Positions 19,971 to 45,226 of a stretch of 64,000 nt of DNA are shown here, in pieces; the first letter of the stretch is position 1; every line of letters begins with the position of its first letter. The position numbers and the translations under genes are program-made. The stretch is from Amphiscolops sp. MND2022 (lineage: Eukaryota). A model generated the notes under the pieces. That model saw only the letters and a program-made list of their open reading frames with translations, ran no database searches and was not told the origin of the DNA. The stretch lies in NCBI GenBank assembly GCA_964187785.1, contig OZ076409.1, positions 52,516,001 through 52,580,000 on the forward strand, in the 5' to 3' direction.

Positions 19971-20106
19971 AGTAATTTACCGAGTTTGTGAACAACGTAG
20001 CCTGAGATCTTATTGTCTCCAACAGTGCCATAGAGCTCTCTCTTTAATTGCTTTAAATCTTTTGTTAAGCTACTGAAAATTTTCTCTAGTTGAAAATTCG
20101 AGTTAT

Positions 20107-20649: not shown

Positions 20650-21048
20650 AGAAAAAGCACTTCAAGCTGTCATTAAGCACATCAACAGACTTGATAACAC
20701 GCACACTCAGTGGACTCATTCAAAATCATCCACTAACACTCAAACAGCAGCACTACTAGGTGAATCAAAAAAACAAAAGGTACAAAAATTTTTGACCTCT
20801 CAAAGTTTCAGTTATTTATGAACAAAGTTTCACAACATATTCGAACGATGCTGTCAATCATTCAAGTTGGCAACTTTACTTCGAAGCGAAAAACTTTTCA
20901 CGCAATAAAAGTGAGAACGAAACAACTGGTCAAATGTCTAGACTTTTTATGATGGTTCTAACCATGCTTAGTTTGGATATGCGATTATGTAAGAGGAGGT
21001 TCAGTCTAATTGACTGACAGAAAAATTGAAGGATTCTCAGTCTGTTGT

Positions 21049-25992: not shown

Positions 25993-28237
25993 TGTCGAAC
26001 CCTACTCTGTGGGTCGGCTTTGAAGAACTTTGCGATGTCGAAGGTAAGTTATTTTCGTCATTTTTACTAATAACTGCCATTAATAAGTTCTTCAGTTGAC
26101 TAAATTCGCTTTGTAACTCATTTATCTTCTTCTCATAGTTCTCTCTTATTTCAGACAACTGGGACGAGATATCTGAAGTTTCGTTGTTGTCAGAGTCATT
26201 GGCGGATGACTGAGCCATGTCTGGATCTATTGGCGAAGATGTTCCTGACGAGGAATGTATGAATCTACCGCTTCTAAGTTCGGTACCTTGGTCTGGATTC
26301 ATGTATTCGAGAGAAAAGAATTATGAGTGAAGACTGAATTATCTGAGATGTTGTTTCAATGTATTTCGCTGATTTAACTGAATATTCAATCTCAAATTCA
26401 CTAATCTGAAACTGAGATGTTTTAGAAAGAAGTCGTACAAATAAGTAAGCAGTTAGATAAGGAGAAGGGAACTAGCAAGTTATTCAGGAGAAGTTCATCC
26501 AATTTTCATCACAGTAGTAGATGTACCAAGGAAATTACTCAGTTCAAATTCTTCAATTTCTGACGATGAAATAGAGATGTATTTTTTGACTTTCGCGTGT
26601 TAAAATATCCAACTGGTCGGTAGCTTGTCGCAATTCGGGCTGAGTAATCTTTTATGGCGGTCCAAATTACAGCAGTTCACGTGTCTTTTCGGTTGGTAAG
26701 ACGCTAAATCTCTTACCAACCTACTCTCATTGGCTGTTACCAGCTGGTGCTAAAATGGTAAGTCACGTGACCAGTGTTGTGAACTGCCGCAAAGTGGCTA
26801 CGCACCATGGTACATCTACATGTGTTAATGGTGTTTAGTCATCAATTTACAATGTCGCAATTGCCTGCACATAACATCATGGTTTCTATAGCAACTAAAA
26901 TGGACTCAAATCATTCAATAACGCACTAATTTCAATCAAATTTAAGGTAAAGCACACTTTGGGATGGGAAAACGATGTTTTCCGCTGATTCTAGCGCCAA
27001 AATCAATGATTTAAAACTTGAAGATGGAAATGCGATGAACTTGTAAGAATATTTGCTGATTTCCAAGTCTAGTTTTGCTCTGGATGAAAATGCGATGAAT
27101 GGTAGTCTTTCTCGTTCGGAAATCAACACAATTCAAACTGACGATGATAAAAGGATGAACTTCATGCATAATTTGCCAATTTCCAGCACAGATTCAAATG
27201 ACGATGAATTCGGGATGAATTCAGTCGATAAACGCTAATTCTAGTACATGAGAATTTTAGCGATGAGTTTAGGATGAACTTGTCAGTTAAAACAGCAAAT
27301 ACCAAAGCAATACAAATTGGCGATGAGTTTAGGATGAACTCACCAGTTAAAACACCGAATACTAAAGCAATTGGATTTAGCGATGAGTTTAGGATGAACT
27401 CACCCACTAAAATGGTTAATTTTCAGCACAAACGATATCAAGATTAATTAAGGATGGGTTTACTAAACAAATCAGATAACCAGCACTTTCACTCTTTTTA
27501 GGATGAATTAAGGATGTACTTTCTCATTTCCCTTCTGTACTAGTGAACGCGATGAATAAAGGATGAACTACCGTTCTTTAGAAATGAGAAGCACATTCAG
27601 GAATTACTAAATGAAATAATCACGATGAATTAAAGATGAGTTTTACTAGAATAAGTCCCATAAAATCCGCTGATGGATTTATGTTGAAAGTCAGTTTAAA
27701 GTCCCATGTTTTGTTCACTCGCAAATTTTAAGGATGGGATTGCGATGAACTTTGGTTAAAAGCACCGTTGAATCCGCTGATGGATCCAATTGAAATTCCT
27801 GATCAGGTCAAGATCGTCATCAAATACGACGATGAATTCGTGATGAATTTAATGGAATTTGTCACAACTACATACTCTGAGGCGGGGAGTTAGTAGAAGT
27901 TATACTTTCCATTACTTCCAATATTCCTCGGCCCAGTCTGACCGGAAAACTTCTCTCCCTTATCGTGACAAACCAATATTTACGAAATATAGCACTTTCA
28001 AGGCCAGATTCTGGCAAGATCATTTATGCGGACACCGGAACTAGAGCGCTCAGTATTAAGTAAATATATATATCTCACACTCAAAGGGGGAAGGGATTAA
28101 AGTACAAGTAACGTAGGGTTGCTCACAACCATGGCCCTTATTATATGACATCATATTGCCCATATCTAAGTACATAAGACATATTATTTACATTACAGAT
28201 ATTTAGTAGATTACATTTCCATCATGCTGGCATGACA
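25993..28237 (-). repeat. 3' LTR (2245 bp)
   Basis: Preceded on the minus strand by PPT GGGGAG. Differs from the 5' LTR by one extra 60-bp unit (about 27341-27400), two 1-bp indels and roughly 17 substitutions counted by eye. Confidence 0.95.
26963..27845 (+). repeat. Diverged ~60-bp tandem array in which only GATG-N7-GATG is conserved (copy in 5' LTR at about 44013-44835)
   Basis: Dyads start at 26963, 27023, 27083, 27143, 27203, 27262, 27322, 27382, 27502, 27551, 27624, 27733 and 27831. Confidence 0.9.
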
Positions 28238-28243
28238 CTCCCC
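28238..28243 (-). promoter_or_regulatory. Polypurine tract (short)
   Basis: GGGGAG immediately before the TGTCATG start of the 3' LTR on the minus strand. Confidence 0.7.
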
Positions 28244-29369
28244 GTGGTGGGATTTGGATTGAGAGTGCAGGGGCCAAATGTGCAGAGGATGGTTGTCTCG
28301 GCGTTGGCTTCGACTGCTTCCTTCGTTTGGTTGGGGCGAAAATGGCCTTCGTTAGTTCTGAATTTGCATGTCCTTCGTTTGTTCCGTCCTATGCAAATCT
28401 TCTCTGAGAAGAGGACTTTCGGCAATCGTCATGTCTAGTTTTATTCTGGGTGATTTCGGTTAAATATTATCGACGCGGCAACTCTGGTTCTTGGTCCATC
28501 GAATGTCCGCTGATCTGCATTTTATTGGTTGTCATGCTTTTGATGGGAGTTTCGGCTGGTTATTTTCGGTAGAAGCTGATTTCTCGGAGAAAAGTTTCCC
28601 TCCAAAACGCCTACACTGAATAAACAATTCGACTAACTTTATTGACAAATTGGCAGCGAGTCGGGGATGAATGAACGATGAATTGTTTACACAGCGAGGC
28701 ATTGATGTTGATTTAGCAGACGACTGGCGCCGTTGCTTTGCTATCAGCTTCCGTGATGAGAAAGAGATGAGTCGTTGCCATAGTAACCATTGAAGCTACT
28801 TCCGCTGTCTGAAATCTCAGCGATGAGAAAGAGATGGCCTGTTGCCATAGCAATCACTGCTAATTCTGATTGGTTGAAAACTGAATTTTCCGAGCTGAAA
28901 GAAATCCAACCGGTTGTCAACAAGTATTCTCATCCTTGAATCATCTTCCGTCAAGTCGGTTTGAAAATCGCCACGATTTCCTCTGCGCGTTTCCGCTCAA
29001 CTTCATCGGTATTGATCTGAGACTGGCAGCTGTCATCAAAATCAAATACTTGAAGCTGTCAAATTCTGGGGGGTGATTCATTTTCAGAGAAAATTGTCAA
29101 GTTGGTTGAACTAGGAAGGAAAGTGTAGGCAGTCATTGAAATCGGAGAGTTTTTCATCGATTTTCCATCTTCTGAATTTCAAGTATTTGGTTTGTCTTGG
29201 CACTCAAGCTGCATCCGCGCTCTTTGAGATTTTCCGCGAATTTGTATCCCGCAATCATGGTTGATCAGGCCATTTAATTACTGATCAAATTCTTGTCACC
29301 AGATTCTTCGATTTCGTTCCTTCCTCACTCTCTTCCGTTCCTTTTCAGATTGCTTTGCAAATTACAGTG

Positions 29370-32300
29370 ATGTCTGACATCCATTTCGTTCATTCTCTTC
29401 CAGAGACCGAAGCTACAGAAAGTAAGTGCACCATTTTCTTTTCTTTCACAAACGGGTCGGGGAACAATTAGGTGTTGAAAACGCGTCTTGGCTTTTTAGC
29501 GGACTCAGTTCAATCTGTCGGTGTCGTCTCTGAGCTGACCACTTTGCAAAACGTGCCGCCCCAAGAGGCTCCCGAAGCTCAAGCAGCAGCTCCTGAGCTT
29601 CAGTTTCAACCTGACCAACCGTTTGGTCAGGCTTCCAATGTCCCGTATCTTCCGCAGTGTAAGTTCTGTCCCTCCAGATCTTCAATTCAGTCCACAATCT
29701 CTTCATTTCTCATCTTTGGTCCCTTCAGACGTTGACTCTTTCCGTTTGATGTTTAGATCACTATCCTTGGCATGCCTCCCTCGGTAGCATCACCTTCGAG
29801 TGGTATGATCGCCACATGCGGGACATGCTACGAGATAGCATCCAGCAGTACAGTGAGTTGACTCCTTTTCACATTTCCGTCTGTACTAAGGTATCGTCCG
29901 GACACTCCGATGTAATTCCGATGTAAACATCTCATCTGCATGTAGTGCCCTTCACGGTCGATTACCTATAAGATTCATTTTTAAAGATGAATTTGGGATG
30001 CGTCATGGACATTCACCGTCCTTTCGTGGCTAATCCGTTTCCGAATTCCATTTTGAGGGTGAAATTTTTGGTGACTTCGTTTCCTGTTTTCTTTCTTCGC
30101 GCGGCGTACGCGCACTCTCTTCATCATCTGTCGTCGTCTGATTTCTGTTTTCTTCTTTCAGGCCCGACTCCTATCCACGCCCCAAGGCCTCGCCCTATTA
30201 CGTATTCCGTGGGTATAGGAACGAGCGACTTTGGTGCAACACAGGTTGACGCTGCTACCCAAGGAGGGCCTTCTTCCCTGGAGATGTCCTCGTTCTTCCA
30301 GGACTTGTCTCTGGGCGCGATCAGCTCCCCTGTGGCACGTGCCCCAGTGTCGGTGCTCTCGCCAAGCTTTCAGCGATTTCTGGATCGTGAATCAACACCT
30401 CAAAGTCCTCCTCCTCCTGTTCGTATCACCGTAGAGACAGGAGTCAGTGCCGTCGTCACTCCTGTGGATGTGGCGGTCGATGCCTGCGTGGCTGTTGCTG
30501 ATCAGTCTGTTCAGGCCGTTGTGGAAACTGGCGAGACATCCACAGAATATGATCCTCCCGTGGACACCCTTCCGGCTGCTCCTTCTTCGCCAGCTGTTAG
30601 CGTCTCTGGAACTTTGGAGGCTGACGTTGAGCGGTCTGACGTGCCATCAACCGACAGCACTGATACCCTACTAGAGGCAGTCGAGAATGTCCCTGTTGGT
30701 GATCCTCTGTCTGCAGAGCCTGCTCCAGAAGGTGCTGTTCCTGGCCTGGTTCCTGTGTCTGCTGAGACGTCTCCCATGGGACCCAGTCTCGTGGACTCCG
30801 ACGACGAGCCCATTGCGTCTCGCTTGCCAGGTTACCTAAACATCTTTAACTCTGTGAAGTATTTGATCGGTAACTTTTATTCATTTCCTTTCATTTCCAC
30901 TTTCACCAGTGTTTTTCTCGTCTTTCTTCTTTTCCATCTATTTTCCATCGTTTTTCTGTTTTTCATATGATTTTCTGCAGTTTTTTCATTTCCCATCACT
31001 TTCTCATCCTTAAAAGTCTTGAGTATAGCGTTTTCTTCTCTGATCATTTTTTAGAACTTTCCACCTCTCTTACATCCTTAAATTTTTCTTGCTCGGTTTA
31101 GCCATTTTTGTCGTTTTCTTTTCAGTTTACATCTCTTTTTCATCGTTAAGTCATTTTCGTTCTAAAATATCTCAATTTTGGTTCAACGTTGTTCTATACA
31201 TCTCTTTTTCATCGTTCTAGGCTTTCGTCTTTTAAAGTTTCAATTTTCTGTCCTGGTGGCTTGTAAACACATCTCTTTTTCATCTTTTCGTTTTTTCTTC
31301 GTTTTTCGCTTATATTTCCAATGAAAATATTATTTTACATCATGTTTTCATCACTCCGGGTGAGTTTTTTGTTTTTTTTGAAATGTTCGGTTGGTTTTCT
31401 ATTTTTCGGTATTCTAGGATGTGTAGAGGATGGGGTTAACATTTTTCGTTGTTCTTTTGATATCAGGAAGGAAAATTCTCAAGTCAGCGTGGTTTAACCA
31501 TGCTTATTGTGGATTGGCGCTCGGCTTCCCGAAGGATCACCTTACGCGCGATTCGTACGCGAGATGTCTACTCTGCAGGCAAGATGTCAAGATCGGTAGC
31601 CGCGGGATAACAACCTTCTTTGAACACTGCCGGGGAGGAGTCAGACACCACCGGCTGGACTGTCTGACGCGATTGCGACGGGGCCTACCGCTGCGCAGAC
31701 GAGATGGGACACTGATGTCCCAAGCCGAGGCAGACATGTGTGGTGCCGCACTAAGTGGTGAGTCAGTACCGTTGATTGAGACGTGTCCAGATGTGACTGT
31801 TCTGGAGGCACTGCAGATCGAGGCGAGTGATGGTTCAGTGTGGGGCACAAGGCGAGTCGCAGAGGATGACGACCACACTGACAGTTTTCGATTGTTCGTG
31901 TGTCTAGTGATTGATGCGATCTATCGGGACTGTAATTTTGCAAGTGTGCGACATCTTTGGGACCTGATGGTTGCCTCCAATTCGCAGCATGCTGTCATGT
32001 TTGGCGCGACTTGTCGAGAATCCGACGTTCTGGTTATTATGAATCTTTTCCGGATGCATGAAATAATTACATGTTGCATGTATTGTTATTTGTATGTTAC
32101 ATGTGAAACTTCCGATAATTTTGGGGTATTTGTATGAAAATTTTTATTTTTTGTTAAAAACTACAAGGTTGGGGTGTGTGTTAATTGAGTGGTCAGTAGG
32201 TAACTATATGAGAATTTAAAATGATGATTGTAGGATGAATGTATGGTCTTGTTTTAGAGCGTTGTTCTACTTGGACTCTGGCCGTTTGTGATGAGACGAG

Positions 32301-34147
32301 TAATTTGTGCGTGGTCCGAAACAGAATTCAGCAGTTTCGGTGTGACATTAGTGGCGGACAGAGTGGTGGGCACGCTGAATGTATGTACCTCGGAAGGGCC
32401 TGCGAACTATGTGGTCTTTTCATTTGCTTATGGACAAGAGTGGGAGCAGCGAGTGGTCTCGTGGGCTGTCAATGTGTTGTGTTGCGCTGTGGGGCAATTG
32501 GCACCTGTTGGCCTCAATTGTCGATTGTTGTCTGGGCTGGAAAGAGTGTTGGTCAGTCGCTCTGGACCAAGGACAGTCTCACTTGTGTCGTTAAAACTTA
32601 CCGAGCTAAACAAGCGTCTGGTGGATGCGAGCATTCGTGTGATGGGCGGGACAGATGTACATACGATATTGAACCATTTGCAATCAAGGCTAAAAGAATT
32701 CGTCCAGGACCCAATCATTTTAGCTTGTCCAAAGCTCTTGCAGGTAACTATTTGTTATTTTTCGATTATTTTTCACTCATGTTGATGTGTCGATTTTTTG
32801 GGGGTGATGCTTTTCGTGGTTGTATCATGTGTAATTTAGGAATTTTTTATTTTTATAAGTTCTTGTTTGTTATAGTGCGTGTTAGATGGAGAGGTAACCC
32901 TCTGGGACGTACCGGACGTGTTGGCTGAGTTATCCGAGAATTGGGCAGAGGTCTCGGATCTGTTGAGAGTGCCTAGTGGATCCGGCGTCATTGAGTCTTT
33001 GGACTTTGAGCTGTGTGGGGATCGTGCTATCCCTTTCCGTTTGCAGGCCTTAGCTAGTGTCTTTCGTGCACGTATGTATGTTTTTTGTTTTCTTGGTGCA
33101 TATCGTTTCGTTATTTACAGTGTCTTAATTTAATAAAAGATATTTGGTTGGGGAATCGAGTAGAGAGCGTGTGACTTGACTATGCTTTTTTTGCAATAAT
33201 TTTTGTTGTTTTCAGTCGTCGATTCATATCGCTGGAGCTTCAGCAGTTGTCCATTGAGGAGTTTCCATTGGGCGTACGAGAGTGCGTGTTTTGTGCACGC
33301 AATCTTAGTCAAGCTGATAGACGACGATGACCTGCCTAGTGTGACCGAGGTGCGGGCTTGCTTGGAAGTGGACGTGGACAATTTGACTGTGTCATATGCC
33401 AAGTTGCGAATCATGAGGGAGGAATTTGGTCCCTACTTAGGGCAAGTTGCAGAAGCTGCCGTAATTGATGAGCACTTGGCGATGGTGCAAAGCTTCATGT
33501 TTGTAGTGGTTGAAGACATTCTAGCTGCTCCCGGAATGAAAGAAGAAGTGACATATCATTTGAGTGTGGGTTGCCCTGCTCTTTTGTTGCGTGGTGAAAT
33601 TGACGTGTTACGAAATGAAGCTGAACAATTTACTGGATTGCTCCTGGATCTGGGGAGGATAGGACTCGCTGAGAAGAGACGGATGGATGGGAGCTTCGTC
33701 TCATTCGTGACCAACTTCAGGCAGAATGCAGTTGATATGTCCGTAGACAGTGCAAGTTCAGCAGTGGACATTTTGCGGGCATGTGAGAGTTCATCGTGTC
33801 AACGCTTCTTCCGTTTCTTGATGTGTCTGGGTGAGACACCTGTATTCCCAGCAGGTATCAGTTGCGTAAGCGTGGGAGGGTTGAGCAGTGATGTCACGAC
33901 AAGTGTTTGCTCAAGTATTCTAAGTTATTTGAGGACGCATTCCATCAGACAGTTCGAAACTGTGAGTGGGCCGTTACTGGAGGAGGTTACGGAGTCAATT
34001 GGTCATTTCACAGCTTTAGCCGATTTGAAAGAAGAGATGCTGTGGGATGATGTAGGAGTAGTCGCGGATGAAGAATACCGTCAGTCGTTGTACGATGCGA
34101 TCGGATTTACAGCTGCTGGAGAGCGCGCAGCTAGCCCTGAGGTTTAG
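29370..34147 (+). CDS. Predicted 8-exon antisense accessory gene of the retrotransposon, ~1051 aa, with acidic/Pro-rich N-terminus, BED/hAT-type zinc finger and a possibly hAT-transposase-derived C-terminal body
   Basis: Exons 29370-29421, 29500-29658, 29757-29852, 30162-30830, 31467-32032, 32258-32743, 32876-33071, 33216-34147. All seven introns are GT-AG and phase-compatible; total 3156 nt with no internal stop. Zinc finger: CLLCRQDVKIGSRGITTFFEHCRGGVRH. Confidence 0.8.
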
Positions 34148-34409
34148 AAATGACTTGCTGTTTATTATTATTTTTTTGAAGCTGTTTGTATCTTTCATGT
34201 TATTTTATATTACTGTATGTTATAGTATTGTATCTAGCAAATGGGTGACCAATTGAACGAATTTACAGGGGGGGAGAACAACAGATGCTACGTCGGAAAG
34301 GTCGGTAGCGTAGATATATACATATTTAGTGTTTGGCACCCGAAATTTGTTTTTCTCTTGAGACATTTTTAGGTGAGGATAGGGATAGGTTAGATTTGCG
34401 GATAGTTTT

Positions 34410-34788
34410 CATCGCTTTCTCATCACATTTTATTTTCGCGCGTTTTAGATAACTTTTATTACGGTGTTCATCGTTATTACATCTCGTGTAGGTGTGGGTA
34501 ATTCATCAGTGTTTCATTGTGATGTCTCATCTCATTTTCATCTTGTTTTCCTCAGTCGACCGAGCGACGTCGCGAAAACTGTTTTCTCATCTTTTTTACA
34601 TCTTTCGTTGTGTGGAAATCATTGGATGTTGTTTCACGTGTTTTTCTGCAAAGTTCATCGTTTTTTCATCTTGCGTTTTCATTTGATCATTTTGGCGAGT
34701 TATTTGCTGTAGTTCATCGTTTTTGCATCGCAAGTTTTGACTTGTCGAATTTTGCTCATTTTGCTGCATAGTTCATCTTCTTTTCATC
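34410..34788 (-). repeat. CATC-N7-CATC array (~60-bp period)
   Basis: Dyads at 34410, 34469, 34528, 34588, 34656, 34715 and 34774. Confidence 0.88.
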
Positions 34789-36180
34789 GTAATTTTGGAA
34801 AATATTTATCTTGCGTGTTTTTCGTGTTTATTTTACTATAACGTGATCGAGAGTTGCATTTTTCATGGTAGATGAGGGTATTTTATCAATTTTGCGGTAT
34901 TTTGGGAGTGTTTTCTTCATGTATTTTAGTGTCATATGGTGTTGATCGTTTGTTAGGTTGTTGAAATTGCATGAAATTTAGTGTACATGTGTTATACTCA
35001 TTTTCGTTGCGTTTCGGATTTGTCATAGTTTGAACATTATTGCATGAATCATTTTTCAGACTCTTGTGACTGCCGCTTGCGTGGCAGTCGAAGAGATGTT
35101 CACTCAGCAATGGTATTGGAACCCCGTAGGCGTGCAAGGTACTTGAGGTACCAATCCAAAGCTGGGTGAGTGGAGCTGCTCCGCTCCATTCAGATGAATG
35201 AAATCTCTCAGTTTTGAGCTATATATAGTCTTCATGTTATTTTTACGGTCGGTTGTTTGTCATCAGACGTCGAAATGGGTTTGTCCATTTGACATTTAAT
35301 CTGATCAATCAAGGTGATTGACATCTACGGCTTTGCATGTTTCGAATTATTAAGTTTTGTGATATTGTGTGGTTTCATGTTTGCGTGTTTTCATAATGTA
35401 TTCCTTTAAATGGGTTGCCCCATTATCGACATGTTGTTATATGTCCGGTGTTAGTTTCATGTATTTTAATTTGGTGTTTTATTTTCGTTCATTTGGACAG
35501 GGCTTTGTCGTCACAAAGCCCCTACAAAACTAACTGAGAATCCACTAGCCGCTGGATAACCAACGCAGCAAGCTTCATCCGAATATGGTTGTGAGCTCCC
35601 CGCATCAACTAACCAGCACTCTTTTCAGAGAAATGCCAGCCAGCACGAAGGAATGTTTTTGGCTTTTCGATAGGGGTATTTTGTTTGTTATGAACTGATG
35701 TTTACTGGGGGGTGCTCACTCCTTTATTCGTTTTGTGGGTGTTTCGTCAGTTCTTATATTTTGCATGTAAGTTAGTAGGCTTCATGTATTTTCGATTGTT
35801 CGTTTCATTTTTATTCGTCTAGGTTTGGATGGCTTTGGTGTGAATTGCATATATTATCTCGTTCATTTTTAAACGGTACATGTATATTTCCGTGTGTTGC
35901 TCATTTGAATTGCATGTAGTTTGGAGTTGTCAATTTCTTTCGTGACGTCATTGATTTGGCAGGTCTTTGAACCGTACATGTATTGATCGTTTCATTTTTG
36001 TGTCGCATAATTCTATTTGCTTGATTCGAAATAAAGTCGGCTGTGTTTTATCGTTTCGTGGAGTTACATGTTGTTTGAGAATTAGCTGATTTATTGTGAT
36101 GTTATGTTGATGGTGTTTCCCATCACAAGGAGGTTTTGGTAAGTCATTTAATATTTTCGAATTTCCATTTAGACTAAATT

Positions 36181-36715
36181 CATCGTTTTGACATCCTCCA
36201 GCGAAGCTAGAGTATTGTGTCAGGCTAACGATAAATTCGGTCACGATTTGATGGTAGTGTCCATCACAAATTCATCTCGTTAATTGATTTCATGTAATTT
36301 CTGAATAATTGGATCGAGTTCATCGCTATTTCATCCTCTAGCCGAGCTAGAGTATTATGATAGCATGAACGTGAGTGCGTTCGCATTCTGATGGTATTTT
36401 CCATCTCAAATGCATCGCTAGTAAATATTGCATGTTGATTGGTCGAATTTTTGACTGAGTTCATCACTTTTTCATCTCTCGTGTGTCTGGGATAAATTTT
36501 CATGTGATTTCATCCTTTTTTCATCTCAAATTTTTGTGTGTTGTTTTTTCTGGGTTTTTGGTCGTTTTTCATCCGTTTTACATCGTGTTTTGTTTTTATG
36601 CGTTTTTCATGCGATTTTTAGTAACTTTTCATCCATTTTACATCTTCATGTTCATTTTAAATTGAAATTGCATGTAATTGACTCGTTTTTGTGAATTGTT
36701 CATCTTTAACACATC
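36181..36715 (-). repeat. CATC-N7-CATC array downstream of pol
   Basis: Dyads at 36181, 36262, 36321, 36402, 36463, 36511, 36570, 36630 and 36701. Confidence 0.88.
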
Positions 36716-36743
36716 GTGTGTTTTGAAATGTTGTTTTTCTTGG

Positions 36744-38072
36744 CTAACTCGTTACGTTTACTTTGTTGGTCTTTCTCAGAGAGTTTCTGGCTGATGTAAT
36801 CTCATGAATAAGGAAGTCAGGATATTTTTTCGGTGTAGGGTTCTCGCGTAACCTGTACCTACTCTGATTGTTTCTAGACGGTCTAGAACTCATCCTTTCC
36901 TCATCTTCAGTTTGCGTGTTTGTCTGTTGTGACTGATTTTCGTGTTGTTCGTCTCTCAGAGGTACTCTTATCCTACTTTCATCGCGGGGGGGCGGTAGAA
37001 TAATTTCTTCTTGCGTTCCAAATCTAACTGTAGGTGGTCTAAAGTTGTTGTGGTCAGTTTCTACTTGCTGATAATCTATTCTCGTGGTTATTTCTGGTGG
37101 AATAACTTGTGGACTGTGTTGTTCTTGTACTTGCGGAATTATTTCTTCTGAAGGCTCTTCTTCGACTAAGTCTTGATCTAGATTGTCATTCTCATTCTGA
37201 TCTACTTCGTCGGTCGTCGGAATGTTCGAGTCGAAAATGTCCGTGTCTTCAACCCTTTCAGTGTCTGGGTAGAGATGTTTGGACACGTTGATGTCATCAA
37301 TCGGGAATTCCGGTTTAAACAATCTCAGTCGCATGCGATGTACGCACTGAGTTTGGTGTGTGCCTACTTTGCGGATGATGTAGTTGCTATCGGATAGCAC
37401 TTTCATCACCTTGTACGGTCCTTTCCAATGGAAAGTTTTAAACTCTTCTTTGCTTCTCTGAGAGTCGTATTTAGGATCTAGTAGGAACACAAATTCATTC
37501 ACCTTCAGTGGCTGTGCTCGTGCTTTTCTATCATAGTACGTTTTGTACTTATGATAGGCGGAAATGATGTTATCTAGATTGTCTCTGAAGATGAAGTTCA
37601 TTTTGTCTAGAATTTCGTTCACGTCCTTGCACTTTGTTTCAGCCGGTTTGTTTGCGTTTCGGAATTGCAGATCTAGTGGGTTGTATGGTGTTCTTCCGTG
37701 GAAAATTTCAGTTGGTGAACATTTCAGTGAATCATGATACGTTGTGTTATGGGCCATGATTGCTATGTCGACATAGCGGTCACATTGTGGTCGGTCTGCG
37801 TTTACACTAATTTTAAGGATCTTTTTCAGTTTCGCGTGCGTTCTCTCTACCATGCCTATTGTCTGTGCGTGCTTTATCGTGGCATGGGAGATGTGAATAT
37901 CAGCCGCTTTCGCGATTTCAGACAGAAGTTCAGCCGTAAACGCCGTGCCCTTGTCCGTCAGAATGTGCTTGGGCACATACGCGTGTTTCGTGAAGATCGA
38001 CAGTAATCCTCTGACTACGGAATGTGTATCAGGTCTCTTCAGCGGAACGGCGAACAGGTAGCGTGAAAAAAC
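36744..38072 (-). CDS. pol: Remainder of integrase (core DDE and C-terminal tail), separated from pol by an 8-nt frameshifting insertion
   Basis: Frame continues VFSRYLFAVPL...ILTDKGTAF...VERTH...WKGPY. Removing GGCGCGGC (38073-38080) restores AVDVFSRY. Confidence 0.9.
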   Translation of the reverse strand, partial: VFSRYLFAVPLKRPDTHSVVRGLLSIFTKHAYVPKHILTDKGTAFTAELLSEIAKAADIHISHATIKHAQTIGMVERTHAKLKKILKISVNADRPQCDRYVDIAIMAHNTTYHDSLKCSPTEIFHGRTPYNPLDLQFRNANKPAETKCKDVNEILDKMNFIFRDNLDNIISAYHKYKTYYDRKARAQPLKVNEFVFLLDPKYDSQRSKEEFKTFHWKGPYKVMKVLSDSNYIIRKVGTHQTQCVHRMRLRLFKPEFPIDDINVSKHLYPDTERVEDTDIFDSNIPTTDEVDQNENDNLDQDLVEEEPSEEIIPQVQEQHSPQVIPPEITTRIDYQQVETDHNNFRPPTVRFGTQEEIILPPPRDESRIRVPLRDEQHENQSQQTNTQTEDEERMSSRPSRNNQSRYRLRENPTPKKYPDFLIHEITSARNSLRKTNKVNVTS

Positions 38073-41000
38073 GCCGCGCCGTCAACAGCCGTCAGAATGT
38101 GTGTGAAACCGTTCGACGCCGGGAGTGGACCAACGATGTCTATTTCCAACAGGTCTTCTGGTCCGTCGCACGGGTCGTAGATTTTTTGTAACGGTGGACG
38201 TAGTTGCGTTTCTTTTACACTTTTAGATTTCATGCAGTTTTCACATCCGTCAAGGACTTTTTGAACTTTACAGGCTAAGTTAGGAGAGTAATATCTTTTA
38301 CGAAGTTCGTACAACATTTTCTTTAAACCAGGGTGTCCTTGTACCGGGCTGTTATGTAGAGTCCTAATTATTTTCAAAATACAGTCTTCAGGAACAACTA
38401 ACTGCTTGTGAGACTCCAGTCCCGTGTGATCAAAAAACTGTCTGTACAAGACACCGTTTACAACTTGTAGGCGTTTTCGATTTTTGTGCAACTTTTGAAA
38501 AAACTGATCTTGCATATTAACTGGGTGTTGCAAAATTTCAGTACCTTCTAAAAATCTAATCATTTTTTGAATAACCCAGTTATTTTTCTGGACCTGAATT
38601 AGATCGATCCCCTCAGCGGGGCTAACCTGACTCATTACCGGGTGTGATAATGATACTTTACGGATGAATTGCGAGAGTTGAATCGGCTCGTCCACGTCTG
38701 TGAGGCGGTACGTCAGATGGTTGTCAGTCGCGAAGTCATCTGAGGCCGCTGTTCTCTCACAGTTGGTGAACTTCATCCCTTTCCCATCGTCATGAGCCAC
38801 GTCAGTGCCAGTTGCCAATTTCATCTCTTTGACATCCTTCTGGCGTTTGCATCTGAGTGGTTCGCTCGTGGGAAAGTAATCAGGCTCGTCTTCCTCCTGT
38901 TTTGGTGTACGGGAGGCGATGTCGATCTCGATTCTGTGAATTGGAATAGTATCAGTCAATTTTAAATGTACACGGTCTTCAGGTCTAATCTCAAGCCGAG
39001 ATAAGTAATCCGCTGCGGGATTTTCAACTCCTGGAACATGTGCTAATAAAAAATTGAACTGAAGGGTTTGATCGCAAAAATTCCAAAGTGAAGGCGGGAT
39101 ATGCTTCGCCTGAATAAATCTAGTCAAGGCCTTATTGTCAGTCATAACAATGATGGGTTTTTTCGCACCCCACAAAATGTGGCCAAATTCATCGAAGGCA
39201 AAGTGCATAGCTAAAAACTCTTTGGCATACATTGTTAGAGACATCTGGCCGCCCTGAAATTTGTTAGAGCCAAATGCAACAGGGGCGTATGTTTGTTTGA
39301 CTGACGGGTCAGCATAATCCTCAATTAACAAAACATAGCCGGCAGCGTGTTCGCTGGCGTCACACATGATTACCAATTGTTTATCAGGTAATGGCAATTT
39401 CAGGGACACTTTTGTTGCTTTTAACAAACTTTCATTGATTTCAAAAATAGCATCTTTATGTTGTTGATTCAGTTTGAAAGGGACGTCCTTCTTGATCAAC
39501 TCCTGTAAACAACAAGTTTTATCAGCTAGGCGGGGAATATAAGACCTGTAAAAGTTTACAAAACCAAGATAACGTTGCAACGCTTTCACTGAGTTGGGGG
39601 GTTTCAATTTGGTCAGATAGTCAGTTACTCGTTTCTCAATGGGAGCAATACCGGTGCTAGAAATTGTTTTTCCCAAGTACTCAATTTGCTTTTGTCCAAA
39701 TTCACAATTACTCATGCTAAGTTTAAGACCAGCTTTGTTCAACTGCTGAAAAACAAGTTCAAGGTTATTAATCAGTTCGTCAGGGGTGTGTGCTGCAATT
39801 CCGATGTCATCAACATATTGAGCACATCGGTCCGCTTTGACCAGGGGGTCCAAATACTCACGGACTACACTTGTGAATGCTGACAAAGAACGATTAAGGC
39901 CCTGTGCTAGGCGTAAAAAGGCAAAAGTTCTAGAACCAAAATTAAACGATAACAGTTGGACAGACTGCTCATCGGCCATTGGGATGCAATGGTAGGCCTG
40001 GGAACAATCAAGTATACAGAAGTACTTTTTCCCGGCCATATGTTGGGCAGCGTCAGCAATTGTTGTTACGGGATGGTTGTGTTCACCGTAATCGTTTTTG
40101 ATCAAGTGGTTTATTCTTCTCAAGTCAACTAAAATCCTCAATTTACTATTAGGTTTACGTTGAGCGAATATCGGAGATGAGTATTTGCTATGAGGCAAAG
40201 TAGTTATGATCCCGTACTCTTGCATTAAGGCTAACTCCACGAGCAAATCGTCCTTCAAATTTGTCGGAGTAGGGAGACTTTGTGAATAAACAGGTTCTTC
40301 ATGTTGGGGTGTTAGCTTAACTTTAAAATCAGTGTTCATGCCAATATCAAAACGATGTCTAGCAAAAATGGAGTTGTACTTTACCAGCAACTCCTCTACC
40401 TGTAACCGTTGAGACGTAACCGTAGTAAGAAGCGAGTCGTCCCAGTTGAAGTTCTTCAGGAAGTTCATCCGTTGTTCATCGGATTGGGACGGGTCAAGCT
40501 TCTCGAGCTCTCGCAGTGCCAGAATCTCATCATAGATTCGTCGCTCAATTGCGTTGAGTTTGTCTGGCTCACTGCACGTCTCGGGAGTTGGGTACCACTT
40601 AGTTGACTTCATTTCAGGGTTCACGAACAGTTGGTTGATCACTGCTTCCGCCTCATCTGGGTACTTGGTGATCAGGTTCAAGTGTTCGACTGGCATGGGT
40701 GTGATGTTTGCCGCCTGATGTGGTGTCGATATGCGAAAGTGTGCCAGAGTGGTGTTGGCATCGAGTGTGAACGTGTGGTTGTTCGGGTTGGTGACCTGGA
40801 TTGTCGTCTTGCCCTCGTCTAGGTCAACCAAAGCTGGGGAAACAAGCAAACACGTCTTTCGCATGAATCCAGGTGAGCCCTCAACTGTACCAGTTGTAAG
40901 TGGGATGTCCGCGTCACTGTGGACCTGTATCATCACTTGATGGAGAGGAGGGATCACTGTTCTAGTACTGGAACACAAATCAATTAAACCAGTTTTGAAT

Positions 41001-41851
41001 CTGTTGTTCTTTTGCTGTCTAACTTGCATGGACATCATGTGATTAGGGAAGTGAACAAGGTGGTTTTTTATGTCTAAGTTGACTGAGTACTTTTCAAAGA
41101 ATGACATTCCAATTAAATTTGTGCCCATTGTTGGAAGGATTAGGAACGTTTCTTCAAAGACTTTTCCAGCAACGTAAAATCTAAGTAAGACTTGCTTACG
41201 CACTGGGACTAAGTTCCCGTTTGCTATTTGAATTTTGAAATTCGGAGGGGGGAGTTCTTGAAGGATGGCTTCTGGATGAGCCGTTGTTATTTTTCGCAAT
41301 TCTGCTTCAGACATTGCGCTTTGAATTGCGCCTGTGTCTAACAGTGCATGATTTTCGTATTTATCAAACTGAAGAGGGACGTACAGCATTTTATCTTTCT
41401 TGTTTAAATGTAAAGTGGGACTAAGAACGTGAATTTCTGTTTTAGTTGCATGTTTGTTAGCTTTTGAAATGTTAGTACTACTATATTTTGCATGTTTTTT
41501 AATACTAAGCCGTTTGTCGATTATTGAGTATGAAGTCGAGTCGTCGTCTAGATGGTTGGTGTCCATCTCTTTGGCATCGTCCACCTGCCTCATGGTGTTT
41601 TGTTGCCAGTTCATCGTTTGTTCATCGTTGATTTCAGCGAGTGGAGAAAAGCGGCTGCCGTTGCGTTGACGTGCATTTCCCATCGCTTTTTCATCGTTGG
41701 AAAGTCTTCGCTGATAGACGTCGTCAGCTTTTGGTCGTTTGTCCAGTGAAGGCTGCCATTTCTTCATTGGACGGTTGTGTGTAGTCGGTTGAGTCGAAAG
41801 TCGTTTGTCGCGCGTTGTATTTCTAGCGGGCGGAAATCGTGGCTGAATCAA
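38039..41851 (-). CDS. pol: Pol: aspartic protease, reverse transcriptase, RNase H, N-terminal integrase (in -1 frame relative to gag)
   Basis: LLDTGA (PR); LDCSQAY and YVDD (RT); IMCDAS and NPAADYLSR (RH); HNSPVQGH...CENC (IN zinc finger); IDIVGPLP (first catalytic Asp). Confidence 0.95.
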   Translation of the reverse strand: MIQPRFPPARNTTRDKRLSTQPTTHNRPMKKWQPSLDKRPKADDVYQRRLSNDEKAMGNARQRNGSRFSPLAEINDEQTMNWQQNTMRQVDDAKEMDTNHLDDDSTSYSIIDKRLSIKKHAKYSSTNISKANKHATKTEIHVLSPTLHLNKKDKMLYVPLQFDKYENHALLDTGAIQSAMSEAELRKITTAHPEAILQELPPPNFKIQIANGNLVPVRKQVLLRFYVAGKVFEETFLILPTMGTNLIGMSFFEKYSVNLDIKNHLVHFPNHMMSMQVRQQKNNRFKTGLIDLCSSTRTVIPPLHQVMIQVHSDADIPLTTGTVEGSPGFMRKTCLLVSPALVDLDEGKTTIQVTNPNNHTFTLDANTTLAHFRISTPHQAANITPMPVEHLNLITKYPDEAEAVINQLFVNPEMKSTKWYPTPETCSEPDKLNAIERRIYDEILALRELEKLDPSQSDEQRMNFLKNFNWDDSLLTTVTSQRLQVEELLVKYNSIFARHRFDIGMNTDFKVKLTPQHEEPVYSQSLPTPTNLKDDLLVELALMQEYGIITTLPHSKYSSPIFAQRKPNSKLRILVDLRRINHLIKNDYGEHNHPVTTIADAAQHMAGKKYFCILDCSQAYHCIPMADEQSVQLLSFNFGSRTFAFLRLAQGLNRSLSAFTSVVREYLDPLVKADRCAQYVDDIGIAAHTPDELINNLELVFQQLNKAGLKLSMSNCEFGQKQIEYLGKTISSTGIAPIEKRVTDYLTKLKPPNSVKALQRYLGFVNFYRSYIPRLADKTCCLQELIKKDVPFKLNQQHKDAIFEINESLLKATKVSLKLPLPDKQLVIMCDASEHAAGYVLLIEDYADPSVKQTYAPVAFGSNKFQGGQMSLTMYAKEFLAMHFAFDEFGHILWGAKKPIIVMTDNKALTRFIQAKHIPPSLWNFCDQTLQFNFLLAHVPGVENPAADYLSRLEIRPEDRVHLKLTDTIPIHRIEIDIASRTPKQEEDEPDYFPTSEPLRCKRQKDVKEMKLATGTDVAHDDGKGMKFTNCERTAASDDFATDNHLTYRLTDVDEPIQLSQFIRKVSLSHPVMSQVSPAEGIDLIQVQKNNWVIQKMIRFLEGTEILQHPVNMQDQFFQKLHKNRKRLQVVNGVLYRQFFDHTGLESHKQLVVPEDCILKIIRTLHNSPVQGHPGLKKMLYELRKRYYSPNLACKVQKVLDGCENCMKSKSVKETQLRPPLQKIYDPCDGPEDLLEIDIVGPLPASNGFTHILTAVDGAAFFHATCSPFR

Positions 41852-43353
41852 AAACCCTGGTTAATGTCTTCATCAGAGTAGCTTAGTTGTTCGTCGTCCT
41901 CAGTAATTGCTTGCATTGGATTCAACGGCTTTTGCTGTCGTTTTAAATCTTGTCGTCTAGCCTTGTTGTCGTCCTGTGAATTCGTTGTGTATGGAATCTT
42001 TCCATATGCAGAGCTGCTTTCCTTGGGAATGCGTCGTCTGCAGTCTCTTGCAGAGTGGCCGGTGTATCCACAAATCTGGCAAACCAGCTTGGGATTGTAC
42101 TTCGGTTTGTCTGGGTCGGTTGCTTTCTTCATCGGAATTGCATCTTCTTTCTTAATGCCGTTTGCTTCGTCACGTTGTCGGGCGCGACATTCCGTTTTGC
42201 GGTGACCTGTCTTTCCGCAGTAGAAGCATTGTCCCTCAAATCGTTTTCGTTCTGTCGGTTGCGTTGTCGTTGTTGTTGCTGGTTTAATCGTTGTGTTGGT
42301 CGTTGGGACCGAGGAGGTGACCGCGTTAAATGGTTGAATTGCCGTTGGTGGCGCAACGTACTGTTGGTACTGGTACTTTCTCATCAAGTATGTCTTGATT
42401 TCTTCTGGTGAGCTCTCCTCCTTATTGGCCATCGTAAGTTCTTGTTGTATTTCGACTGGGAGTTTACCGAACAAGAACATTTTGATGATTTTATCCGCTT
42501 CTTCCCCAAATGCTTGTTTCGCAATCTTTTTCAAGTTTTTGAGGAAGTCGCTGAATGTTTCTGTGGTGGGATCGTAACGGGCTTGATCCCATTTGTATCG
42601 AGCTACTTCTTTAAGGTCCTCTTTCGCGAATTCTTTCCTGAAGAGGTCGAGTACATCTTTCAGCGTTGTTAGTGGCGTTATCTGGATGGATTGCCAGTAC
42701 TCTATTGCATCATCTCTCAAAAGGCTTTGAAAGAAGTGGAGTTTGTTCTCTTCGGTGATTTTGTTGGCGAGCGGGCTAAGGTGGTTAAGGAGAAGGTGCT
42801 CGAATTCCACGAATTTGTCTTTTTGGCCTCTGAAATTTGGGACGTGTGTCTGTAGTAGTTTCGTGTTGGTGGTGGTGCTTTTGATTCGTTGGGGGATCGT
42901 CTCGATTGCATTGAGTAGTCGTTCCTCATTGCTTCTAGGAGTTGATTCACCTTCTTCGTCCGAGTCGTCTTCCTGGAATCGCCTGAAGTTTGTGAAGCTG
43001 GATGTCGGGCGGGTGGAGCGGGTTTCTGTAACTCCTGTCACCATGTCGAACCCTACTCTGTGGGTCGGCTTTGAAGAACTTTGCGATGTCGAAGGTAAGT
43101 TATTTTCGTCATTTTTACTAATAACTGCCATTAATAAGTTCTTCAGTTGACTAAATTCGCTTTGTAACTCATTTATCTTCTTCTCATAGTTCACTCTTAT
43201 TTCAGACAACTGGGACGAGATATCTGAAGTTTCGTTGTTGTCAGAGTCATTGGCGGATGACTGAGCCATGTCTGGATCTATTGGCGAAGATGTTCCTGAC
43301 GAGGAATGTATGACTCTACCGCTTCTAAGTTCGGTACCTTGGTCTGGATTCAT
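41848..43353 (-). CDS. gag: Gag (coiled-coil N-terminus, capsid-like region, two CCHC zinc knuckles)
   Basis: 501-aa ORF with CFYCGKTGHRKTEC and CQICGYTGHSARDC. It starts inside the 5' LTR and reads through the PBS. Confidence 0.95.
   Translation of the reverse strand: MNPDQGTELRSGRVIHSSSGTSSPIDPDMAQSSANDSDNNETSDISSQLSEIRVNYEKKINELQSEFSQLKNLLMAVISKNDENNLPSTSQSSSKPTHRVGFDMVTGVTETRSTRPTSSFTNFRRFQEDDSDEEGESTPRSNEERLLNAIETIPQRIKSTTTNTKLLQTHVPNFRGQKDKFVEFEHLLLNHLSPLANKITEENKLHFFQSLLRDDAIEYWQSIQITPLTTLKDVLDLFRKEFAKEDLKEVARYKWDQARYDPTTETFSDFLKNLKKIAKQAFGEEADKIIKMFLFGKLPVEIQQELTMANKEESSPEEIKTYLMRKYQYQQYVAPPTAIQPFNAVTSSVPTTNTTIKPATTTTTQPTERKRFEGQCFYCGKTGHRKTECRARQRDEANGIKKEDAIPMKKATDPDKPKYNPKLVCQICGYTGHSARDCRRRIPKESSSAYGKIPYTTNSQDDNKARRQDLKRQQKPLNPMQAITEDDEQLSYSDEDINQGF
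41851..41857 (-). promoter_or_regulatory. -1 ribosomal frameshift slippery site G GGU UUU
   Basis: CAG GGT TTT TGA ends gag. The heptamer fits X XXY YYZ, and pol is open in the -1 frame (TTG ATT CAG...). Confidence 0.8.
43031..43043 (-). promoter_or_regulatory. Primer binding site, tRNA-Leu-like
   Basis: TGGTGACAGGAGT abuts the LTR end and matches 12/13 nt of the complement of a typical eukaryotic tRNA-Leu(CAG) 3' end (TGGTGTCAGGAGT). Confidence 0.75.
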
Positions 43354-45226
43354 GTATTCGAGAGAAAGAATTATGAGTGAAGACTGAATTATCTGAGATG
43401 TTGTTTCAATGTATTTTGCTGATTTAACTGAATATTCAATCTCAAATTCACTAATCTGAAACTGAGATGTTTTAGAAAGAAGTCGTACAAATAAGTAAGC
43501 AGTTAGATAAGGAGAAGGGAACTAGCAAGTTATTCAGGAGAAGTTCATCCAATTTTCATCACAGTAGTAGATGTACCAAGGAAATTACTCAGTTCAAATT
43601 CTTCAATTTCTGACGATGAAATAGAGATGTATTTTTTGACTTTCGCGTGTTAAAATATCCAACTGGTCGGTAGCTTGTCGCAATTCGGGCTGAGTAATCT
43701 TTTATGGCGGTCCAAATTACAGCAGTTCACGTGTCTTTTCGGTTGGTAAGACGCTAAATCTCTTACCAACCTACTCTCATTGGCTGTTACCAGCTGGTGC
43801 TAAAATGGTAAGTCACGTGACCAGTGTTGTGAACTGCCGCAAAGTGGCTACGCACCATGGTACATCTACATGTGTTAATGGTGTTTAGTCATCAATTTAC
43901 AATGTCGCAATTGCCTGCACATAACATCATGGTTTCTATAGCAACTAAAATGGACTCAAATCATTCAATAACGCACTAATTTCAATCAAATTTAAGGTAA
44001 AGCACACTTTGGGATGGGAAAACGATGTTTTCCGCTGATTCTAGCGCCAAAATCAATGATTTAAAACTTGAAGATGGAAATGCGATGAACTTGTAAGAAT
44101 ATTTGCTGATTTCCAAGTCTAGTTTTGCTCTGGATGAAAATGCGATGAATGGTAGTCTTTCTCGTTCGGAAATCAACACAATTCAAACTGACGATGATAA
44201 AAGGATGAACTCCATGCATAATTTGCCAATTTCCAGCACAGATTCAAATGACGATGAATTCGGGATGAATTCAGTCGATAAACGCTAATTCTAGTACATG
44301 AGAATTTTAGCGATGAGTTTAGGATGAACTTGTCAGTTAAAACAGCAAATACCAAAGCAATACAAATTGGCGATGAGTTTAGGATGAACTCACCCACTAA
44401 AATGGTTAATTTTCAGCACAAACGATATCAAGATGAATTAAGGATGGGTTTACTAAACAAATCAGATAACTAGCACTTTCACTCTTTTTAGGATGAATTA
44501 AGGATGTACTTTCTCATTTCCCTTCTGTACTAGTGAACGCGATGAATAAAGGATGAACTACCGTTCTTTAGAAATGAGAAGCACACTCAGGAAATACTAA
44601 AAGAAATAATCACGATGAATTAAAGATGAGTTTTACTAGAATAAGTCCCATAAAATCCGCTGATGGATTTATGATGAAAGTCAATTTAAAGTCCCATGTT
44701 TTGTTCACTCGCAAATTTTAAGGATGGGATTGCGATGAACTTTGGTTAAAAGCACCGTTGAATCCGCTGATGGATCCAATTGAAATTCCTGATCAGGTCA
44801 ACATCGTCATCAAATACGACGATGAATTCGTGATGAATTTAATGGAATTTGTCACAACTACATACTCTGAGGCGGGGAGTTAGTAGAAGTTATACTTTCC
44901 ATTACTTCCAATATTCCTCGGTCCAGTCTGACCGGAAAACTTCTCTCCTTATCGTGACAAACCAATATTTACGAAATATAGCTCTTTCAAGGCCAGATTC
45001 TGGCAAGATCATTTATGCGGACACCGGAACTAGAGCGCTCAGTATTAAGTAAATATATATATCTCACACTCAAAGGGGGATGGGATTAAAGTACAAGCAA
45101 CGTAGGGTTGCTCACAACCATGGCCCTTATTATATGACATCATATTGCCCATATCTAAGTACATAAGACATAATATTTACATTACAGATATTTAGTAGAT
45201 TACATTTCCATCATGCTGGCATGACA
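43044..45226 (-). repeat. 5' LTR (2183 bp), contains the first 103 codons of gag
   Basis: Minus strand reads TGTCATGCC...GGGTTCGACA, followed directly by the TGG PBS. Matches 25993-28237. Confidence 0.95.

What the first reader, a model, noticed from the sequence alone, without database searches (positions are those of the whole stretch)
36891..41695. The GATG-N7-GATG dyad is also written into pol coding sequence, only in flexible linkers
Seen in sequence: dyads at 36891, 38774, 41564, 41612 and 41681 encode D-x-x-x-M peptides (DEERM, DGKGM, DAKEM, DEQTM, DEKAM). They sit in the pre-protease leader, the RH-IN linker and the IN tail, and I saw none in catalytic domains. Inference: selection for the DNA motif is shaping protein sequence where the protein tolerates it, which argues for function over repeat drift.
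Basis: partly seen in the sequence, partly recalled or inferred. Interest (0 to 1): 0.7.

Follow-up and report, generated by a model that had tools for sequence, protein, structure and literature searches.

The report
Retrotransposon DNA motif written into proteins
A large animal-type retrotransposon carries dozens of exact copies of a short DNA motif, eight of them encoded inside its gag and pol genes at the cost of codon and amino-acid choice, and it also carries a zinc-finger gene that may be the protein reading this motif, although binding has not been shown.

Summary
The five sites are real. They lie in a 19.2-kb Ty3/gypsy element (minus strand, 25993-45226) holding 73 of the window's 75 GATG-N7-GATG copies, a direct repeat, not an inverted dyad. 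Gag-pol has 8 sense copies, all encoding D-x-x-x-M; all 8 motif-compatible peptides use the exact codons (synonymous shuffles: mean 0.69, maximum 5 of 5000). One-mismatch copies are not enriched and flanks are at background identity, so the 8 core bases are selected, not left over from a repeat. A sister family (about 80% identical) keeps D and M at 5 of 6 linker sites, where other residues are 40% conserved, and gains new sites. 'Only in flexible linkers' is too strong: 7 of 8; one lies in a conserved pre-RT segment and an antisense copy lies in the protease. The element also carries a predicted 8-exon antisense gene (1051 aa) with a BED-like zinc finger and weak similarity to hAT transposase. 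Best reading: binding sites for this self-encoded protein, working like plant VANC/TnpA anti-silencing (about 0.45). Binding, function, and the DNA of other copies are untested.

The parts
25993..45226 (-). Ty3/gypsy LTR retrotransposon, 19,234 bp, flanked by a 5-bp target-site duplication
   Evidence: LTR pair, TSD on both sides, Pfam domains
43044..45226 (-). 5' LTR (TG...CA), 16 motif copies (15 on +, 1 on -), mostly about 60 bp apart; the gag ORF starts inside it
25993..28236 (-). 3' LTR, 15 motif copies; differs from the 5' LTR by 17 substitutions, a 60-bp indel and three 1-bp indels
41848..43353 (-). gag ORF, 501 aa, two CCHC zinc knuckles
   Evidence: 90% cluster of 182 members
38039..41860 (-). 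pol ORF part 1: leader, protease, spacer, RT, RNase H, RH-IN linker, integrase zinc finger; in this copy the frame is interrupted in the integrase core near 38040-38080
36744..38081 (-). pol ORF part 2: rest of the integrase core, C-terminal domain, acidic tail
36891..36905 (-). motif in integrase tail (DEERM); absent in the one sister-family copy that covers it
38774..38788 (-). motif in RH-IN linker (DGKGM; sister family DGKPM/DGKSM)
41264..41278 (+). opposite-strand motif copy inside the protease domain; may be chance
41564..41578 (-). motif in pre-protease leader (DAKEM; kept in sister family)
41612..41626 (-). motif in pre-protease leader (DEQTM; sister DEQTM/DDQTM)
41681..41695 (-). motif in pre-protease leader (DEKAM; sister DEQPM)
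29370..34147 (+). predicted antisense accessory gene, 8 exons (29370-29421, 29500-29658, 29757-29852, 30162-30830, 31467-32032, 32258-32743, 32876-33071, 33216-34147), 1051 aa, all introns GT-AG and phase-continuous; no RNA evidence
31467..32032 (+). exon 5: CxxC...HC..HH...C zinc-finger-like domain plus helical domain; holds one motif copy (31703, DGTLM, also conserved as protein)
33216..34147 (+). exon 8: helical domain with a weak, long structural alignment to the C-terminal part of Hermes (hAT) transposase
34410..34788 (-). non-coding motif array, 7 copies, 59-68 bp apart
36181..36715 (-). non-coding motif array directly behind pol, 9 copies, 49-81 bp apart
30935..31432 (.). motif array in intron 4 of the accessory gene (6 on -, 1 on +)
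28666..29169 (.). motif copies upstream of the accessory gene (3 on +, 2 on -)

Best explanation
GATG-N7-GATG is a protein-binding site on double-stranded DNA: two 4-bp half-sites one helical turn apart, each usually followed by A-rich bases, laid out at least 48 bp apart in steps of about 10-11 bp. Selection favours such sites along the whole element, so they were also written into gag and pol wherever the protein tolerates D-[VADEG]-x-x-M. That much is shown statistically. Inferred further: by coating LTRs, introns and gene body it keeps its own family transcribed or free of silencing, as VANC and TnpA do for plant DNA transposons. My odds: selection on the nucleotide motif about 0.9; DNA rather than RNA level, given that, about 0.8; self-encoded reader, given both, about 0.6.
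For: Exact-codon use at 8 of 8 compatible peptides, P 1.7e-9. 58 copies against 1.85 expected in the element without its 3' LTR; 2 copies in the 44.8 kb outside. Exact copies peak at spacer 7 (16, 9, 33 in LTR, coding, 3' region) while one-mismatch copies do not (4, 10, 8; other spacers 1-17) and flank identity is 0.30. Sister family keeps D in 23 and M in 23 of 25 linker-site reads against 390 of 964 other linker residues, with new sites DGKTM and DDKTM (reads are of related copies, 5 of 6 sites at site level). Both orientations occur and 5 tested stretches share no RNA fold, z -1.75 to +2.12. Same-strand spacings cluster at 48-49, 59-61, 67-73, 77-81 and the three coding spacings are 48, 48, 69. 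Accessory gene: 8 phase-continuous exons, 66 and 58 relatives of two exons, near-invariant Cys/His, zf-BED in 14 of 47 members, best E 0.002; Hermes transposase is the first Foldseek row for exon 5 (E 1.7) and the longest VIA alignment among the 50 rows for exon 8 (170 residues, Z 4.8, rmsd 6.4, Hermes 365-609), in the expected N-to-C order. Hermes BED reads a 4-bp site followed by AT-rich DNA (PMC10368747, passages).
Against: No binding or expression data. The hAT link is weak: no significant Foldseek or Pfam hit, Hermes is absent from the VIA lists for exon 5, and Z 4.8 lies within the background of helical matches. CpG observed/expected is 0.85-0.99 throughout, so a methylation-removing role like VANC's has no footprint here. 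Motif presence could not be linked to accessory-protein type across families, since no DNA of those families was at hand. The spacing periodicity weakens when each value is counted once (p about 0.09). Spacer bases of coding copies match the non-coding profile no better than synonymous chance (p 0.13). Cluster 9 has 14 compatible peptides (2 sites) without known DNA.
Confidence: 0.45

Rival explanations
1. The motif is a selected DNA site, but the reader is a host protein (transcription factor, insulator or chromatin factor) that the element recruits; the accessory gene does something else.
For: All motif statistics fit any reader. The accessory protein's identity as a DNA binder rests on weak hits.
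Against: The motif is nearly confined to two sister families: compatible peptides 3.25 and 3.59 per 1000 aa against 0-0.83 in eight other families; 0 copies in 18,455 bp of nine distant relatives and 2 in 44.8 kb of flanking DNA. A host factor would be open to all families.
Confidence: 0.22
2. The motif acts in RNA (packaging, export or stability signal read by Gag or an RNA-binding protein), so it is spread along the genomic transcript.
For: 8 of 9 coding copies and 24 of 33 copies in the 3' region are in the sense of the gag-pol transcript.
Against: 15 of 16 LTR copies have the opposite orientation; an invariant spacer giving an 11-base period and inter-site steps of about 10-11 suit double-helical DNA; no shared fold in 5 of 5 stretches; no Rfam match.
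Confidence: 0.13
3. Neutral origin: linkers were built from the non-coding array, or homogenised with it by template switching, and the motif is a relic.
For: Leader and RH-IN copies are spaced like array units (48, 48, 69); the LTR array shows recent 60-bp unit duplication.
Against: Flanks of the coding copies are no closer to any non-coding unit than shuffles (best identity 0.40-0.53 against a null of 0.41-0.48; 2-3 of 8 reach the 95th percentile); no excess of one-mismatch copies; DEQRM and the sister family's DGKTM arose by point changes in alignable, conserved protein.
Confidence: 0.07
4. Selection acts on the peptide D-x-x-x-M (protease cleavage or docking site in linkers); the DNA motif is a by-product.
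For: 7 of 8 sites lie in inter-domain linkers where polyproteins are cut; D and M are conserved in the sister family.
Against: Peptide selection cannot fix synonymous positions: GAT 8 of 8 (P 5e-4) and G-ending fourth codon 8 of 8 (P 3e-6); the same motif stands in about 48 non-coding places of the element without its 3' LTR.
Confidence: 0.03
5. The accessory protein reads the motif, but to handle cDNA or target integration (tethering the pre-integration complex, or guiding it to existing copies), not to control transcription.
For: hAT BED domains read subterminal repeats during transpososome assembly (PMC10368747, passages); the densest array is in the LTRs.
Against: Sites in introns, between genes and in gene bodies are far from cDNA ends, the layout reported for VANC targets (PMC5735166, passages); the insertion site here has no motif nearby.
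Confidence: 0.1

Closest known systems
VANC / VANDAL anti-silencing system of Arabidopsis MULE transposons (PMC5735166, passages)
   Same: Element-encoded accessory protein; short family-specific motif accumulated in arrays in introns, intergenic and terminal non-coding regions.
   Different: VANDALs are plant DNA transposons; VANC is reported as MAIN-related (PMC13547354, passages); the paper reports the motif absent from the coding-region probes. Here: an LTR retrotransposon, a split direct repeat, sites also inside gag-pol, no CpG depletion, no binding shown.
TnpA of Spm/CACTA and transposase-derived regulators (bioRxiv 10.64898/2026.08.24.746577, abstract and passages)
   Same: A transposase-derived DNA-binding protein acting as sequence-specific regulator of its own family.
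   Different: DNA transposons only (the word retrotransposon does not occur in its main text); HTH domains. Here a class I element would use a class II (hAT-like) protein.
Retand/Tat plant Ty3 elements (PMC11963269, passages and Discussion)
   Same: Long pol-to-3'LTR region with antisense ORFs and family-specific repeat arrays; DNA binding proposed, function unknown.
   Different: Their protein is TRP28 (PF04195), not hit here; their arrays are tandem repeats, whereas here only 8 bases per unit are kept; recoding of pol not seen in the parts I read.
hAT transposase Hermes: BED domain and subterminal repeats (PMC10368747, passages)
   Same: N-terminal Cys/His zinc finger; 4-bp site followed by AT-rich DNA; many sites per element.
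   Different: Sequence similarity is not significant; structural support is weak; catalytic residues not tested; sites are direct pairs spread through a retrotransposon.
Giant animal Ty3 elements with accessory ORFs (Burro; PMC6431247, passages)
   Same: Large animal Ty3 elements with extra coding capacity.
   Different: Extra domains are other families; the word antisense does not occur in that review's main text.

Membership tests
Ty3/gypsy LTR retrotransposon | Two LTRs with TG...CA ends and a short TSD | tested here: met
   2244 and 2183 bp, 5-bp TSD
Ty3/gypsy LTR retrotransposon | Order gag, protease, RT, RNase H, integrase | tested here: met
Ty3/gypsy LTR retrotransposon | Primer-binding site and polypurine tract | tested here: inconclusive
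   TGG follows the 5' LTR at 43043 and a short purine run precedes the 3' LTR; the match to a host tRNA was not tested
Ty3/gypsy LTR retrotransposon | Placement by RT phylogeny | not tested
   no tree built; RT matches foamy-virus and Ty3 chains best in PDB
hAT transposase derivative (accessory protein) | N-terminal BED zinc finger | tested here: inconclusive
   Cys/His kept in 42-46 of 43-46 rows; zf-BED in 14 of 47 members, best E 0.002, none for the window's own exon
hAT transposase derivative (accessory protein) | Intertwined helical dimerisation domain after the finger | tested here: inconclusive
   helices predicted at 150-201; Foldseek first row Hermes at E 1.7; no VIA support
hAT transposase derivative (accessory protein) | RNase H-like DDE core | not tested
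   exons 6-7 were not folded; Pfam gave no hit
hAT transposase derivative (accessory protein) | Insertion domain and C-terminal hAT domain | tested here: inconclusive
   VIA Z 4.8, 170 aligned, rmsd 6.4 to Hermes 365-609; no Pfam or Foldseek hit
hAT transposase derivative (accessory protein) | Own terminal inverted repeats and 8-bp TSD (nested insertion rather than cargo) | not tested
   no dedicated search; no inverted repeat of 60 nt or more in this region
VANC/VANDAL anti-silencing system | Carried by a MULE DNA transposon | tested here: not met
   carrier is a Ty3 retrotransposon
VANC/VANDAL anti-silencing system | Short motif arrayed in introns, intergenic and terminal non-coding regions | tested here: met
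   32 of 33 copies in the 3' region lie outside the predicted exons, which cover 3156 of 8507 bp; 16 in the LTR
VANC/VANDAL anti-silencing system | Motif differs between families | tested here: inconclusive
   signature present in 2 of 10 families, absent in 9 distant DNA loci; other families' motifs not seen
VANC/VANDAL anti-silencing system | Element-encoded protein binds the motif and removes silencing | not testable with these tools
   needs binding and reporter assays
Retand/Tat elements | Antisense ORF between pol and 3' LTR | tested here: met
Retand/Tat elements | TRP28 (PF04195) domain | tested here: not met
   no hit in Pfam scans of the exons or of 47 and 49 alignment members

The most novel reading that the evidence does not exclude
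An animal Ty3 retrotransposon lineage has taken up a hAT transposase as its own sequence-specific regulator and has co-evolved with it a split binding site that it writes along its whole length, even recoding gag and pol, so that motif gains and losses can be read from polyprotein sequence. This would be a VANC-like, family-specific anti-silencing system in an animal retrotransposon, built from a DNA-transposon part.
Probability: 0.35. Interest if true: 0.86.

Novelty: new variant of a known kind. Interest (0 to 1): 0.66.

Why it matters
Retrotransposons with antisense accessory genes and repeat arrays are known in plants, with function stated as unknown (PMC11963269, Discussion). Here protein and candidate target are both in hand, and the target is defined to the base (8 fixed bases, fixed spacer, minimum spacing 48 bp), so one binding assay decides the main question. 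If true, it extends self-encoded anti-silencing from plant DNA transposons to an animal retrotransposon, shows capture of a class II protein by a class I element, and gives a clean case of a DNA signal shaping polyprotein sequence. The family is abundant (1482 members in the 90% pol cluster), so the system may bear on how such genomes grow. Even without the mechanism, the recoding itself is well supported.

Tried and rejected
DNA of close copies: no genome held; viral contigs gave no relative; metagenome contigs none for the family-specific query and 9 short, distant loci for the alignment query; prokaryote genomes none. Sequencing runs: 2 listed, small shares, no RNA holder listed. Laid on 36850-42200 they gave 11 low-depth contigs each; one piece spanning 40341-40534 had 0 other letters, but 49 difference rows were hidden and single contigs are no test. 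A three-motif pattern matched 42 viral stretches; none encodes a relative of pol or of the two accessory exons, and they look like unrelated tandem or coding repeats. Spaced-word enrichment in the 9 distant loci came from homologous positions counted in several loci, not from a second motif. Retention within the own family is uninformative: D 39, M 40 of 41 against 92.6% background. No longer, full-length relative of exon 5 was found (weak evidence). Atlas search gave no usable hit for exon 5. PDB sequence searches with both accessory alignments and with the protease-RT spacer: none. Viral fold library: nothing significant. Homodimer prediction of the exon-5 helical part: no verdict. Profile comparisons with the second element's plus-strand fragments: E 0.05-0.12 only. 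RNA families: none. Earlier scan findings: none that bear on this. Host: not identified; acoel worms were a guess from GC and LTR load and remain untested. Literature searches for a description of this system (listings and abstract starts only) showed none; the library lacks most subscription papers and Repbase reports, and I read no supplements.
Full report
**1. Observation.** The window has 75 copies of GATG-N7-GATG, 41 on + and 34 on -. No other spacer from 0 to 24 gives more than 5 per strand, and the inverted arrangement GATG-N7-CATC is absent. It is a direct repeat with an 11-bp period. 73 copies lie in one element, 25993-45226, a minus-strand Ty3/gypsy retrotransposon with 2.2-kb TG...CA LTRs, a 5-bp target duplication and gag, protease, RT, RNase H and integrase in Ty3 order. 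In this copy the pol frame is interrupted in the integrase core near 38040-38080; relatives at 95-98% identity are continuous there. Three more sense copies lie at 38822, 40466 and 42130, and one opposite-strand copy at 41264.

**2. More than chance.** Gag and pol contain 9 D-x-x-x-M peptides. One (DIAIM, integrase core) cannot carry the motif; the other 8 can, and all 8 do. Asp is GAT in only 57 of 146 codons and the fourth codon ends in G with probability 0.13-0.35; the joint probability is 1.7e-9 under independent codon usage. Synonymous shuffles give a mean of 0.69 (max 5 of 5000), codon-order shuffles 0.088 (max 2 of 5000). The motif is defined by the non-coding arrays, so this is not a search over many patterns. 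All 8 being in one frame is no surprise by itself, since that frame is the likeliest.

**3. Selection, not repeat descent.** A decaying repeat should leave near-matches and similar flanks. Exact copies peak sharply at spacer 7 (16, 9 and 33 in LTR, coding region and 3' region), while one-mismatch copies number 4, 10 and 8, within the range of other spacers (1-17). Mean flank identity is 0.30, and the flanks of coding copies are, as a group, no closer to non-coding units than shuffles. Beyond the 8 core bases, the coding copies fit the non-coding profile no better than synonymous chance (p 0.13).

**4. Across families (protein level only).** I read 15 members each of 10 clusters. The sister family (about 80% identical; leader and RH-IN linker 43-50%) keeps D in 23 and M in 23 of 25 linker-site reads, against 390 of 964 other linker residues. 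These reads are related copies; by site, 5 of 6 are kept and the integrase-tail site is not. The changes seen (E to D, V to A, A to P, E to T, G to P or S) stay compatible with the motif. The sister family lacks DEQRM and has two sites of its own, DDKTM in the RH-IN linker and DGKTM, which differs by two substitutions from EGKTT in a region 80-88% identical. Compatible peptides run at 3.25 and 3.59 per 1000 aa in these two families and 0-0.83 in the other eight; the highest of those, cluster 9, has two recurring sites whose DNA I could not see. Nine distant DNA loci (18,455 bp) have no copy.

**5. Placement.** Seven of 8 sense copies are in low-hydrophobicity linkers: leader (3), RH-IN linker (2), integrase tail (1), gag inter-knuckle (1). 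With linkers roughly 31% of codons by my hand estimate, P is about 0.002. DEQRM lies in a segment 58-71% identical across families, where only the last position is free, about 20 residues ahead of the part that aligns to solved RT chains. So the rule is 'where the protein tolerates it', not 'only linkers'.

**6. Layout of the sites.** Both orientations occur: 15 of 16 LTR copies on +, 24 of 33 in the 3' region on -. The 38 same-strand neighbours within 140 bp are never closer than 48 bp and cluster at 48-49, 59-61, 67-73 and 77-81. A 10-11-bp phase holds without the 59-61 class (p about 0.02) but weakens when each value is counted once (p about 0.09). The three coding spacings are 48, 48 and 69. 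Five stretches show no shared RNA fold, and Rfam has no match. This fits a protein on double-stranded DNA (inference).

**7. [quoted passage not shown] Only 1 of the 33 copies in this region is exonic, and that one encodes a peptide conserved as protein. Exon 5 has 66 relatives at 45-98% identity with near-invariant Cys and His and weak zf-BED hits in 14 of 47 members. Exon 8 has 58 relatives and folds with pLDDT 81. Hermes transposase is the first Foldseek row for exon 5 (E 1.7, low-confidence model) and gives the longest VIA alignment for exon 8 (170 residues, Z 4.8, rmsd 6.4; the other 49 rows align 93 or fewer). Neither is significant alone, other searches did not list it, and exons 6-7 were not folded. 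I put a hAT origin at about 0.7.

**8. Mechanism.** Shown: selection on the 8 core bases, including in coding sequence; restriction to two sister families among ten; an antisense gene conserved in protein sequence. The likeliest role is family-specific activation or anti-silencing, by analogy with VANC (PMC5735166, passages) and TnpA or transposases (bioRxiv 10.64898/2026.08.24.746577, abstract and passages). CpG is not depleted, so the silencing opposed is probably not DNA methylation (inference). Overall 0.45; rivals are a host reader (0.22), an RNA signal (0.13), a role in integration (0.10), a neutral relic (0.07) and peptide selection (0.03).

**9. Comparison and novelty.** It is a Ty3/gypsy element. 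It is not a VANDAL (wrong carrier) and not a Retand (no TRP28), though it is laid out like both (PMC11963269, passages and Discussion). Hermes BED reads a 4-bp site with an AT-rich 3' flank (PMC10368747, passages), similar in kind to GATG followed by A-rich bases. Seven literature searches (listings only) showed no report of such a cassette in an animal retrotransposon or of target motifs recoded into gag-pol; the library is incomplete and no supplements were read. The host is unidentified; the neighbouring katanin-like gene points to an animal.

**10. Verdict.** Observation partly confirmed; interpretation supported; new variant of a known kind; interest 0.66.

Noticed in passing
window 43044-43353: The gag ORF starts 310 bp inside the 5' LTR and reads through the LTR end and the PBS-like site; all 15 listed cluster members start with the same residues, apart from one conservative change.
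   Followed up: partly
window about 52200-64000: A second, decayed Ty3 element (pol fragments on the minus strand) also has plus-strand fragments with a CxxC finger and stretches resembling the accessory gene; profile E-values only 0.05-0.12. Five palindrome-like GGAC-N5-GTCC words (up to one mismatch) lie at 52201-55408.
   Followed up: partly
clusters: Three contig lengths (130154, 260540, 108522) occur among listed members of both the gag cluster and the exon-5 cluster, suggesting that other copies carry both genes.
   Followed up: partly
window 25993-28236 against 43044-45226: The LTRs differ by one 60-bp indel, the size of one array unit, besides 17 substitutions: the array changes length quickly.
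   Followed up: partly
window 5774-7384: Uninterrupted 536-codon ORF for a katanin p60 A-like AAA ATPase, nearest clusters mostly animal.
   Followed up: partly
window 2033-3480 and 4174-20650: A 180-190-bp tandem repeat and several dispersed repeats in both orientations, possibly small non-autonomous DNA transposons.
   Followed up: no
window 40571-41080: The protease-RT spacer is 49-52% identical across families and may be a degenerate dUTPase-like domain (PF00692 is listed for 2 of 120 relatives); no PDB match.
   Followed up: partly
whole window: CpG observed/expected is 0.85-0.99 in all compartments: no trace of methylation-driven CpG loss.
   Followed up: no
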